A DNA stretch of 1,170 nucleotides from a phage. Below are positions 1-1,170 of the stretch, piece by piece; position 1 is the stretch's first letter; every line of letters begins with the position of its first letter. Below the pieces are notes generated by a model. The model was given only the letters and a program-made list of their open reading frames with translations. It was not told the DNA's origin and searched no databases. The DNA lies in the sequence record OR846254.1; one strand, written 5' to 3'. The translations under genes were made by a program, and so were the position numbers.

Positions 1-1170
1 AACCGGCCACCACCACGTTCAGGATTAATGCACCTGCGGTACCCGCCACGATTGAGCTGACACCGGGCTATTTTCAGATAACCGCCACGCCGCATCTTGC
101 GGTTTATGATCCGACGGTACAGTTTGAGTTCTGGTTCTCGGAAACGCGGATTGCGGATATCAGGCAGGTTGAAACCACAGCCCGCTACCTTGGCACGGGG
201 CTGTACTGGATAGCCGCCAGTATCAATATCAAACCGGGCCATGATTATTACTTTTATATCCGCAGTGTGAACACCGTTGGCAAATCGGCATTCGTGGAGG
301 CTGTTGGCCAGCCGAGTGATGATGCATCCGGCTATCTGGATTTTTTCAAAGGAGAAATCGGGAAAACACATCTGGCCCAGGAGCTGTGGACGCAGATTGA
401 TAACGGTCAGCTTGCGCCGGACCTGGCTGAAATCAGGACGTCCATTACGAATGTCAGCAATGAAATCACGCAGACCGTCAATAAGAAACTGGAAGACCAG
501 AGTGCAGCGATCCAGCAGATACAGAAGGTTCAGGTTGATACAAATAATAACCTGAACAGCATGTGGGCAGTGAAGCTGCAGCAGATGCAGGACGGACGCC
601 TTTATATTGCGGGTATCGGTGCCGGTATTGAGAATACGCCAGCAGGAATGCAGAGTCAGGTGCTGCTGGCGGCAGACAGGATTGCGATGATTAATCCTGC
701 GAATGGCAACACAAAGCCGATGTTTGTTGGTCAGGGCGATCAGATATTCATGAATGAAGTGTTCCTGAAATATCTGACGGCTCCCACCATTACCAGTGGC
801 GGCAATCCTCCGGCATTTTCCCTGACATCAGACGGAAAGCTGACCGCTAAAAATGCGGATATCAGTGGCAGTGTGAATGCGAACTCAGGGACGCTCAACA
901 ACGTCACGATTAACGAGAACTGTCAGATTAAGGGGAAACTGTCAGCCAACCAGATTGAAGGCGATATTGTCAAAACGGTCAGCAAGTCTTTCCCCCGCAC
1001 GAGCACTTATGCCAGTGGCACCATCACGGTAAGAATCAGTGATGATCAGAAGTTTGACCGGCAGGTCATGATACCGCCAGTGTTATTCCGCGGTGGTAAG
1101 CATGAGAATTTCAACAGTAATAACCAACAGTCATACTGGTATTCAACCTGCCGGTTAAGAGTGACCCGCA
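1..1170 (+). CDS. J: Phage host-specificity / tail-tip attachment protein J (lambda gpJ family), internal fragment truncated at both ends by the window; codons are in frame 3 (first complete codon nt 3-5, last nt 1167-1169)
   Basis: Frame 3 is open across all 389 codons (chance of no stop in 389 random codons is about 1e-8), while frames 1 and 2 hit stops within the first 60 nt. The translation contains long motifs I recognise from lambda gpJ and its prophage homologues: [109 protein letters not shown], and FDRQ....P..FRG. No ATG with a ribosome-binding site and no stop codon lie in this frame, so both gene ends are outside the window. Family assignment is from recalled sequence, not a database search. 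Confidence 0.9.
3..329 (+). other. Conserved lambda-J-like block (aa 1-109 of the window translation), ending in the [35 protein letters not shown] motif; probably the end of a beta-rich (fibronectin-III-like) domain of the tail tip protein
   Basis: High apparent identity to recalled lambda gpJ sequence over [52 protein letters not shown]. The composition, with alternating aromatic and aliphatic residues ([18 protein letters not shown]), suits beta strands. The domain assignment is inference. Confidence 0.5.
330..569 (+). other. Central block that appears divergent from lambda J (aa 110-189), including a Gln/Asn-rich segment with predicted coiled-coil character: [33 protein letters not shown]
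   Basis: This stretch ([76 protein letters not shown]) does not match what I recall of lambda gpJ at the equivalent position, whereas both flanks do. Polar Q/N/K/E residues alternate with periodically spaced hydrophobics (I, V, L, A). Confidence 0.4.
570..920 (+). other. Second conserved lambda-J-like block (aa 190-306): [17 protein letters not shown]...[86 protein letters not shown]
   Basis: Near-identical to recalled lambda gpJ motifs ([55 protein letters not shown]), with only scattered substitutions. Confidence 0.55.
921..1169 (+). other. Start of the distal, receptor-recognition portion of J (aa 307-389), which appears divergent from lambda; truncated by the window end
   Basis: From [86 protein letters not shown] onward only isolated anchor residues (ENC, GDIVK, FDRQ, FRG, a second Cys) match my recollection of lambda gpJ. 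In lambda the C-terminal portion of J carries the LamB-binding host-range determinants. Confidence 0.45.

What the first reader, a model, noticed from the sequence alone, without database searches (positions are those of the whole stretch)
330..569. Apparent mosaic junctions: a divergent central module between two conserved lambda-like blocks
Conservation relative to recalled lambda gpJ is high up to about aa 105 (nt ~320) and again from about aa 188 (nt ~565), but the roughly 80 residues between look unrelated. Sharp switches between near-identity and no similarity are the signature of modular recombination in lambdoid tail-fibre genes. If real, this J allele is a recombinant, and the exchanged module may alter fibre geometry or host interaction.
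Basis: inference. Interest (0 to 1): 0.45.

Follow-up and report, generated by a model that had tools for sequence, protein, structure and literature searches.

The report
Swapped shaft module in phage J
This is a stretch of a lambda-like phage tail-tip gene (J) whose helical "shaft" segment belongs to a different, longer and very common allele class than phage lambda's, a real but ordinary case of the module shuffling long known in these tail-fibre genes.

Summary
The window and lambda are 100% identical over nt 200-301, then 59% over nt 302-715, including a 28-aa length difference. At DNA and silent-site level the divergent block ends near nt 715, not nt 569. The return of protein similarity at "MWAVK" is a domain-constraint boundary, not a junction. 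The block is not unrelated to lambda: it encodes gpJ's alpha-helical shaft (AHS, nt 318-560) plus the upper beta-prism, in a long class (81 vs 53 aa). This long class (type A) is 95-97% identical in phage 21, VT1-Sakai and most E. coli prophages. Lambda carries the narrower short class. Recombination is strongly supported by saturated dS inside the block, PHI p=0.0005 and triplet p<=5e-5. The same OmpC-type ("A8") receptor-binding domain occurs with all three shaft classes. The window's own recent junctions lie elsewhere (nt ~50-83 and ~800-850). This is ordinary lambdoid mosaicism: a new combination of known modules.

The parts
3..1169 (+). Internal fragment of gene J (central tail fibre / tip attachment protein). 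Frame 3 is open throughout. It corresponds to lambda gpJ residues ~704-1061+ and to aa ~704-1090 of the 1160-aa long form.
   Evidence: PDB gpJ 8iyk E=6e-147. Pfam Ig_J_second, Phage_Tail_Tip and Ig_GpJ_C. Annotated as J in all close relatives.
1..82 (+). 5' patch that is 100% identical to Stx1-type (type-B) J alleles. Over nt 1-49 it is only 55-62% identical to lambda, phage 21, Chlobot and E. coli 730V1. A recent junction lies between about nt 50 and nt 83.
   Evidence: In the triplet test, 22 of 22 informative sites at nt 2-62 match Stx1_120412.
39..347 (+). Second Ig/FNIII-like domain of J (FNIII-2, aa 13-115). It is lambda/phage-21-like: 92% aa identity to lambda, with nt 200-301 identical to lambda.
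   Evidence: Pfam PF24489 E=8e-40.
302..715 (+). The block that is anciently diverged from lambda (59% nt identity, silent sites saturated). It is type A, 92-99% identical in phage 21, Chlobot, PhiR70_1, VT1-Sakai and others.
318..560 (+). Alpha-helical shaft (AHS) of gpJ, window aa 106-186, equivalent to lambda residues 809-861. It is 81 aa here versus 53 aa in lambda.
   Evidence: Mapped through the alignments onto the domain limits in Ge et al. 2024 (PMC11101478). No Pfam model covers aa 116-168. Amphipathic periodicity of 3.6 residues for aa 137-186, p=0.0025.
399..488 (+). Approximate position of the 28 extra residues absent from lambda (within aa ~133-162, '[30 protein letters not shown]'). 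Exact gap placement is ambiguous.
   Evidence: MAFFT and HMMER alignments.
561..716 (+). Upper part of the beta-sheet prism (central straight fibre, aa 187-238). It belongs to the same diverged block as the AHS and is co-inherited with it.
   Evidence: 62% nt and 58% aa identity to lambda. Type-A versions of nt 330-569 and nt 570-720 each occur in 65 phage records, with the same phages listed.
717..905 (+). Lower beta-prism (within Pfam Phage_Tail_Tip, aa 169-297). It is conserved across classes: 86-95% nt identity to lambda. It acts as the right-hand homology arm for exchanges.
849..1170 (+). [quoted passage not shown] It is 99.7% identical to Stx1a phage Stx1_120412 and ~98% (aa) to the natural C-terminus used in the engineered OmpC-targeting 'A8' gpJ. 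It is only ~51-55% identical to lambda (LamB type).
   Evidence: Brodel et al. 2024 (PMC11338833).

Best explanation
Nt 330-569 encodes the alpha-helical shaft (AHS) of the trimeric central tail fibre protein J. This three-helix bundle sits between the FNIII-2 domains and the beta-prism that carries the receptor-binding domain.

In lambda (shown experimentally by others) the shaft clamps the FNIII domains shut. On receptor binding a twist travels up the prism, the shaft flips and partly refolds into beta-strands on top of the prism, the clamp is released and the tail tip opens.

The window carries a different, ancient allele class of this shaft together with the upper prism (nt 302-715). Its shaft is 28 residues longer than lambda's. 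Lambdoid phages hold at least three such classes: lambda-type short, type A long and type B long. Homologous recombination shuffles them through the conserved sequences on either side: the FNIII-2 / GYLDFFKG region on the left and the lower prism on the right.

Shown here: the domain mapping, the breakpoints, the saturation at silent sites, the allele classes, the co-inheritance of shaft and upper prism, and free assortment with the RBD.

Inferred: that the long shaft forms a longer helical bundle and works like lambda's as the trigger transducer, and that shaft and upper prism travel together because they must pack on each other after triggering.
For: Domain mapping: the window aligns to solved gpJ (8iyk, 8xcj), with aa 134-162 unmatched. 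Lambda 809-861 (the AHS) corresponds to window aa 106-186. Pfam domains flank the uncovered shaft.

Breakpoints: 100% identity at nt 200-301, then 59.1% at nt 302-715, then 86.3%.

Different ancestry: dS is 0.19, then saturated, then 0.38. Third-position identity is 85-95%, then 29-58%, then 85%.

Allele classes: type A occurs in 65 phage records at >=90%, type B in 96 at 60-80%, and lambda type in 89.

Co-inheritance of AHS and upper prism: 65 records each.

Recombination: PHI p=0.0005 and triplet p<=5e-5. The left crossover sits at ~nt 301, ~336-345 or ~380 in different alleles.

Free assortment: the A8-type RBD occurs with the short shaft (phages 2H10, PhiR30_1, Turner), with type A (Chlobot, PhiR70_1, E. 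coli 730V1) and with type B (Stx1_120412).

Helical character: 3.6-residue amphipathic periodicity in aa 137-186, p=0.0025.

Shaft length is variable family-wide: spacer lengths of 58, 86, 112, 159, 257, 314, 423 and 445 residues. This agrees with long coiled-coil shafts in F-type pyocin central fibres.
Against: No structure exists for the long shaft. The AlphaFold2 monomer model was uninformative (mean pLDDT 39.8). Amphipathic periodicity over the whole 81-aa shaft is only marginal (p=0.054). A Gly...Pro motif (aa 134-139) may break the helix, so the extra 28 residues need not simply lengthen the bundle.

The direction and parents of the ancient exchange cannot be determined. Co-inheritance of shaft and upper prism rests on equal record counts and overlapping hit lists, not on record-by-record typing. 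The window is only 1170 nt, so what lies upstream of nt 1 and downstream of nt 1170 in this allele is unknown.
Confidence: 0.85

Rival explanations
1. There was no exchange. The central block diverged in place, through relaxed constraint or diversifying selection on a linker-like shaft, while the flanks stayed conserved.
For: The shaft is the least constrained part at protein level: dN 0.66 for aa 119-186 versus 0.03-0.05 in the flanks. It is also highly variable in length across the family.
Against: Synonymous sites are saturated inside the block and low outside. There are 102 identical bases immediately before the cliff. The same block is 95-99% identical in phages whose flanks differ. PHI and triplet tests are significant. 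Within type A the block is under strong purifying selection (dN/dS 0.02-0.13).
Confidence: 0.04
2. The mosaic pattern in the window is an assembly artefact: a chimeric contig that joins J fragments from different prophages of one genome.
For: Such chimeras clearly exist in public data. IMG/VR contigs L073, L093, L077 and L067 concatenate partial J fragments. Many clustered 'proteins' fuse terminase, portal or tape-measure N-termini to J C-termini. The window's exact three-part combination (type-B 5' end + type-A centre + A8 RBD) was not found in any complete record; the best match is 97.2% over nt 83-1170.
Against: The lambda-relative cliff at nt 302-715 is present in dozens of complete phage genomes and thousands of finished E. 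coli chromosomes, so it is biological. The window keeps one open frame through all junctions. The type-B 5' end joined to a type-A centre also occurs in other contigs (L102, L086, L078). Only the junction at nt ~50-83 could be assembly-derived.
Confidence: 0.06
3. The shaft module is a host-range determinant in its own right. The long shaft would be matched to particular receptors, or to surface layers such as O-antigen or capsule thickness, so its exchange changes which cells are infected.
For: 28 extra residues could add up to ~4 nm of reach if they form a continuous helix (inference). Central-fibre shafts vary from 53 to more than 400 residues across the family. In F-type pyocins the shaft is a functional platform.
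Against: One RBD type (A8/OmpC type) is found with short, type-A and type-B shafts in complete phages. That argues against receptor-specific matching. Lambda side fibres dock at the gpV/gpM junction, not on the shaft. There are no phenotype data.
Confidence: 0.15

Closest known systems
Phage lambda gpJ (tip attachment protein / central tail fibre; PDB 8IYK, 8XCG, 8XCJ)
   Same: Same gene family and same domain order (FNIII-2, alpha-helical shaft, beta-prism, Ig-like RBD). Near-identity in FNIII-2 (92% aa) and in the lower prism (90% aa).
   Different: The shaft is 81 aa instead of 53. Shaft plus upper prism is only 56-62% identical at DNA level with saturated silent sites. The RBD is of a different (OmpC-type) class, ~50% aa identity.
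J of phage 21, Escherichia phages Chlobot and PhiR70_1, and the E. coli O19:H7 730V1 prophage (1160-aa long form)
   Same: Same type-A shaft and upper prism (93-97% nt). Chlobot, PhiR70_1 and 730V1 also share the RBD type. Overall identity is 94-97% over nt 50-1170.
   Different: The first ~50-80 nt of the window belong to another allele family (55-62% identity). Phage 21 has a different RBD (74% from nt 797).
J of Stx1a-converting phage Stx1_120412 (type-B allele)
   Same: Identical at nt 1-82 and 99.7% identical at nt 849-1170. The shaft has the same length.
   Different: The whole interior (nt 83-848: FNIII-2, shaft, most of the prism) is only 68% identical.
Engineered 'A8' gpJ chimera (lambda gpJ 1-964 plus a natural E. 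coli gpJ C-terminus; PDB 9wca; Brodel et al. 2024)
   Same: The window from about aa 289 onward is almost identical to the A8 C-terminal part, with 2 aa differences in the overlap. A8 delivers through OmpC instead of LamB.
   Different: A8 keeps lambda's short shaft, while the window has the long type-A shaft. The window is a natural allele and stops before the end of the RBD.
Coiled-coil to beta-prism fold-switching central fibres (F7 pyocin, He et al. 2026 preprint) and the extended AHS of F2 pyocin
   Same: A trimeric helical shaft of variable length lies upstream of a beta-prism in a J-like central fibre. In lambda, part of the shaft (841-861) also converts to beta-strands on triggering.
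   Different: The pyocin shaft is far longer (163 switching residues). No fold switch has been shown or predicted here for the type-A shaft, and the SxSxxMxxLxS motif was not formally tested.

Membership tests
Lambda-like central tail fibre protein J (gpJ) | Second Ig/FNIII-like domain of J | tested here: met
   Pfam PF24489 Ig_J_second, aa 13-115, E=7.9e-40, 135.6 bits against a cutoff of 27.
Lambda-like central tail fibre protein J (gpJ) | Tail-tip fibre beta-prism domain (Phage_Tail_Tip) | tested here: met
   PF09327, aa 169-297, E=2e-31, 109 bits against a cutoff of 22.
Lambda-like central tail fibre protein J (gpJ) | C-terminal Ig-like receptor-binding domain | tested here: met
   PF12421 Ig_GpJ_C, aa 334-388, 46.6 bits against a cutoff of 26.2. 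Only profile positions 16-65 of 135 match, because the window ends inside the domain.
Lambda-like central tail fibre protein J (gpJ) | Sequence homology to structurally solved gpJ | tested here: met
   8iyk_J E=6.4e-147; 9wca_J E=1.7e-184.
Lambda-like central tail fibre protein J (gpJ) | N-terminal hub domains and the gene order K-I-J-lom-stf | not testable with these tools
   These lie outside the 1170-nt window. They are present in all close relatives examined.
Recombinant (mosaic) allele | Statistically supported identity breakpoints | tested here: met
   Change points against lambda at nt 50, 302, 716 and 935, and against Stx1_120412 at nt 83 and 849, each with permutation p<=0.01.
Recombinant (mosaic) allele | The jump in divergence is also present at synonymous sites | tested here: met
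   dS is 0.19, then saturated, then 0.38, then saturated. Third-position identity profile.
Recombinant (mosaic) allele | Phylogenetic incongruence between segments | tested here: met
   PHI p=0.0005 on 12 sequences from complete or finished records. Triplet test p<=5e-5. RBD type is shared across three shaft classes.
Recombinant (mosaic) allele | Identified parents and direction of transfer | tested here: inconclusive
   No record is more than 97.2% identical over nt 83-1170. The long class is broader than the short class, which hints that lambda's short shaft is derived, but this is not proof.
gpJ alpha-helical shaft (AHS) | Position between FNIII-2 and the beta-prism, homologous to lambda 809-861 | tested here: met
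   Alignments. The N-terminal '[16 protein letters not shown]' and the C-terminal 'N.MW' anchors are conserved.
gpJ alpha-helical shaft (AHS) | Amphipathic helical periodicity | tested here: inconclusive
   aa 137-186 show power at a 3.6-residue period, p=0.0025. The whole shaft (aa 106-186) gives p=0.054.
gpJ alpha-helical shaft (AHS) | Trimeric helix bundle that refolds on receptor binding | not testable with these tools
   Only monomer AlphaFold2 was available, and its model had mean pLDDT 39.8.
A8-type (OmpC-using) gpJ receptor-binding domain | Near-identity to the A8 C-terminal segment (from lambda position 964) | tested here: met
   Window aa 289-389 against 9wca: 2 differences (TST vs TNS) in the printed alignment.
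A8-type (OmpC-using) gpJ receptor-binding domain | OmpC-dependent, LamB-independent infection | not testable with these tools
   Shown experimentally only for the A8 chimera. The last ~70 residues of this allele's RBD lie outside the window.

The most novel reading that the evidence does not exclude
The alpha-helical shaft plus upper beta-prism (nt 302-715) is a self-contained, freely exchangeable 'trigger cassette' of the lambdoid tail tip. Its discrete length classes (53 vs 81 residues, and longer) would set the stand-off distance and/or the energy threshold of the helix-to-sheet rearrangement that opens the tail, independently of which receptor is bound. Natural shaft swaps would then tune ejection sensitivity rather than host range.
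Probability: 0.2. Interest if true: 0.5.

Novelty: new member of a known kind. Interest (0 to 1): 0.25.

Why it matters
Mosaicism in lambdoid tail-fibre genes is textbook knowledge, so the finding changes little. The useful refinements are as follows. The block that differs from lambda coincides with the structurally defined trigger-transducing part of gpJ, the helical shaft plus the prism surface it refolds onto. It comes in discrete length classes, and lambda, the model system, carries the narrower short class. It assorts independently of the receptor-binding domain. That gives phage engineers natural, pre-tested junction points, and it gives a natural series for testing how shaft length affects tail-tip opening. 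The window also carries the natural OmpC-type RBD already used to retarget lambda particles.

Tried and rejected
(1) AlphaFold2 monomer prediction of aa 86-266 with a 12-sequence alignment gave mean pLDDT 39.8. It was not used, and no fold search was run.

(2) The idea that 28 residues equals four heptads, i.e. quantised shaft length, was dropped. Family spacer lengths are 58, 86, 112, 159, 257, 314, 423 and 445, which do not differ by multiples of 7 or 11. The periodicity is ~3.6.

(3) Chi-site-driven junctions. The window has no perfect Chi. There are four 1-mismatch sites against 1.1 expected, and 5 of 200 shuffles reach four. One of them (nt 300-307) sits on the left junction, but this is not significant.

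(4) An overlapping gene. The frame-1 ORF at nt 277-555 (92 aa, TTG start) is interrupted by stops in almost all close relatives. dS in the block is not depressed within type A.

(5) Non-coding features. Rfam gave only a sub-threshold NiCo hit (17 bits against a gathering score of 37, E=0.97). Promoter-like and terminator-like sites are at shuffle expectation.

(6) Side-fibre docking on the shaft, as in F-type pyocin. In Ur-lambda the Stf collar sits on the gpV/gpM junction.

(7) Tandem arrays of alternative J 3' cassettes in IMG/VR contigs L073 and L093. They resolve into partial J fragments with back-jumps in J coordinates, most simply explained as assembly chimeras. These contigs were therefore not used as parents. 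Conclusions were re-derived from complete phage and chromosome records.

(8) Exact source of the window. It was not found in the phage collection, in 5,426 E. coli genomes, in GTDB species representatives or in IMG/VR.

(9) The pyocin fold-switch motif SxSxxMxxLxS was inspected only by eye. No clear match was seen and no formal test was done.
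Full report
WHAT THE WINDOW IS

Frame 3 is open over all 1170 bases. The product aligns to lambda gpJ residues 704-1061. It matches solved gpJ structures (8iyk E=6e-147) and three Pfam J domains: Ig_J_second at aa 13-115, Phage_Tail_Tip at aa 169-297 and Ig_GpJ_C at aa 334-388. Close relatives are annotated as host specificity / central tail fibre protein J, are 1160 aa long, and lie in the order K-I-J-lom-stf. Lambda J is 1132 aa. The family is very common: 4,540 of 5,426 complete E. coli genomes have a match, with a median of 2 and up to 14 copies per genome. No database held this exact allele. The best matches are 95.1% over the whole window and 97.2% over nt 83-1170.

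CHECKING THE OBSERVATION

The cliff against lambda is real.

- Protein identity to lambda is 92% in FNIII-2 (aa 17-105). It is 43% over the 53 alignable residues of aa 106-186, where 28 window residues have no lambda counterpart. It is 58% for aa 187-238 and 90% for aa 239-300.
- A likelihood change-point analysis of nucleotide mismatches, with permutation testing, gives 62% for nt 3-49, 95% for nt 50-174, 68% for nt 175-199, 100% for nt 200-301, 59.1% for nt 302-715, 86.3% for nt 716-934 and 51.4% for nt 935-1169. All breakpoints have p<=0.01.

The left edge is therefore at nt 301/302, directly after 102 identical bases.

No nucleotide breakpoint exists at the finding's right edge. DNA identity stays at 57-63% and third-position identity at 30-50% until about nt 720. 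That point is the boundary between a weakly constrained domain and a strongly constrained one inside a single diverged block. In that block dN is 0.66 for aa 119-186 and 0.29 for aa 187-240, and dS is saturated in both.

WHAT THE BLOCK ENCODES

Ge et al. [quoted passage not shown] Through the alignments, lambda 809-861 corresponds to window aa 106-186, which is nt 318-560.

In lambda the AHS is a three-helix bundle that holds the three FNIII-2 domains together. On LamB binding it flips by about 180 degrees. Residues 841-861 become beta-strands on top of the prism, the upper helix shortens, and the tip opens.

The window's shaft is 81 aa against 53 in lambda. No Pfam model covers aa 116-168. 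Residues 137-186 show strong 3.6-residue amphipathic periodicity (p=0.0025), while the whole shaft is marginal (p=0.054). An AlphaFold2 monomer model was uninformative (pLDDT 39.8).

ALLELE CLASSES

Alignment of 43 homologous segments shows three classes of the shaft/upper-prism block:

- **Type A:** the window, phage 21, VT1-Sakai, Chlobot and PhiR70_1, at 92-99% nt identity.
- **Type B:** many Stx-phage alleles. It has the same length, with 61-69% nt and about 60% aa identity.
- **Lambda type:** 28 aa shorter.

In the phage collection, type A occurs in 65 records at >=90% and type B in 96 at 60-80%. The lambda type occurs in 89 records, including 434, HK629/630, some Stx1a/Stx2c phages, and more distantly Fels-1 and Gifsy-2.

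In E. coli genomes about 3,300 of 4,574 matching records have a best hit at >=90% over the whole window, which is only possible with a type-A centre. So the window's module is the common one.

Among 47 representatives of 50%-identity clusters that have both anchors, the spacer from FVEA to the M of MWAVK is 58 residues in 16 and 86 residues in 24, with single cases of 112, 159, 257, 314, 423 and 445. A 136-residue case is a duplication artefact. The 86-residue class is much more diverse (minimum 38% identity) than the 58-residue class (minimum 67%). This suggests lambda's short shaft is the derived state (inference).

IS IT RECOMBINATION?

Yes.

1. Synonymous divergence from lambda is 0.19 for aa 17-100, saturated (pS 0.72-0.81) for aa 101-240, 0.38 for aa 241-300 and saturated again in the RBD. 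Local selection on the protein would not produce that pattern.
2. Within type A the block is under strong purifying selection (dN/dS 0.02-0.13).
3. On 12 sequences from complete or finished records, the PHI test gives p=0.0005 and a triplet test gives p<=5e-5.
4. The left crossover lies at different points in different alleles: ~nt 301 (window, phage 21), ~nt 336-345 (L086) and ~nt 380 (L009). Further hybrid forms appear among cluster representatives.
5. Segments assort freely. The window's RBD type occurs with the short lambda-type shaft in phages 2H10, PhiR30_1 and Turner (97-99% aa over 245 residues). It occurs with type A in Chlobot, PhiR70_1 and E. coli 730V1. It occurs with type B in Stx1_120412.
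6. Type-A versions of the shaft (nt 330-569) and of the upper prism (nt 570-720) are found in the same number of phage records (65 each), and the same phages are listed. The two therefore travel together. This makes structural sense, because in lambda's open state the shaft refolds onto the top of the prism (the link is my inference).

THE WINDOW'S OWN RECENT JUNCTIONS

Against the complete Stx1a phage Stx1_120412, the window is 100% identical at nt 1-82, 67.9% at nt 83-848 and 99.7% at nt 849-1170. Against phage 21 it is 57% at nt 3-49, 96% at nt 50-796 and 74% beyond. Against its nearest finished relative, E. coli O19:H7 730V1, it is 57% at nt 1-49 and 97.1% at nt 50-1170.

So this allele differs from its nearest relatives by a junction at nt ~50-83. 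Its RBD block starts at nt ~800-850. The lambda-relative edges at nt 302 and nt 715 are old class boundaries shared by all type-A alleles.

FUNCTION OF THE C-TERMINAL PART

From the lambda-equivalent position 964 onward, the window is nearly identical to the natural C-terminus used in the engineered "A8" gpJ (PDB 9wca). That chimera delivers DNA through OmpC rather than LamB (Brodel et al. 2024, PMC11338833). The allele therefore probably uses OmpC. This is an inference, and the last ~70 residues of the RBD are outside the window.

ALTERNATIVES CONSIDERED

- In-place divergence is contradicted by the silent-site pattern and the shared modules.
- An assembly chimera is a real concern in this gene family. 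Several IMG/VR contigs are concatenated J fragments, and many clustered proteins are fusions. However, the nt 302-715 block is present in finished genomes. Only the nt ~50-83 junction could be affected.
- A role of the shaft in receptor choice is unlikely given free assortment with the RBD. A role in side-fibre docking is unlikely because lambda Stf docks on gpV/gpM.
- The overlapping frame-1 ORF (nt 277-555) is not conserved.
- Rfam, promoter, terminator and Chi scans are at chance level.

VERDICT

The recombination interpretation is right in kind but lambda-centric. The block is the common long-shaft class, homologous to lambda's, and the exchanged unit is shaft plus upper prism (nt ~302-715). 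This is ordinary lambdoid tail-fibre mosaicism: a previously unrecorded combination of known modules. The only mildly new point is that the exchangeable unit coincides with the structurally defined trigger-transducing part of gpJ, and that it comes in discrete length classes independent of the RBD.

Noticed in passing
window nt 849-1170: The C-terminal part is the natural 'A8'-type gpJ receptor-binding region (2 aa differences from PDB 9wca in the overlap). That type was used to retarget lambda particles from LamB to OmpC, so this allele probably uses OmpC.
   Followed up: partly
window nt 1-82: The first ~50-80 nt ('[19 protein letters not shown]') belong to a different allele family from the rest. 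They are 100% identical to Stx1-type J alleles and 55-62% identical to lambda, phage 21 and Chlobot. This is a separate junction, outside the finding.
   Followed up: yes
L093:1-7347, L073:1-11410, L077, L067 (IMG/VR contigs): These contigs contain 2-4 partial J fragments head to tail, with back-jumps in J coordinates (for example aa 463-946, then 365-913, then 396-1160, then 634-1159). They are most likely repeat-threading assembly chimeras from genomes with many lambdoid prophages, not cassette arrays.
   Followed up: partly
P0002, P0024, P0026, P0043-P0045, P0065, P0066 (cluster representatives); phrog_94, phrog_15: Many representative 'proteins' fuse terminase, portal, protease or tape-measure N-termini to J C-termini. 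PHROG families named 'head maturation protease' and 'terminase large subunit' also hit this J fragment, apparently because such chimeras contaminate those families.
   Followed up: no
L016-L024, L028-L032 (genome contigs): Lambda J sequence appears on low-coverage contigs of unrelated assemblies (Neobacillus, Leeuwenhoekiella, Pseudomonas, Shewanella, Bradyrhizobium and others). This is most likely lambda control-DNA contamination.
   Followed up: no
window nt 300-307 and nt 326-351: A 1-mismatch Chi-like octamer (GCTGTTGG) and a weak hairpin followed by a T-run sit right at the left junction zone. Both are at chance expectation.
   Followed up: yes
P0037, P0018, P0046 (E. coli-type J relatives): Some otherwise close J alleles have much longer shafts (159 and 257 residues between the FVEA and MW anchors) with internal sequence repeats. 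Shaft length is therefore polymorphic well beyond the 53/81 dimorphism.
   Followed up: partly
window nt 175-199: A 25-nt micro-patch is only 68% identical to lambda, inside an otherwise 95-100% identical flank ('[10 protein letters not shown]' vs 'ETSTRYLGTA'). This suggests fine-scale mosaicism or a small conversion tract.
   Followed up: no
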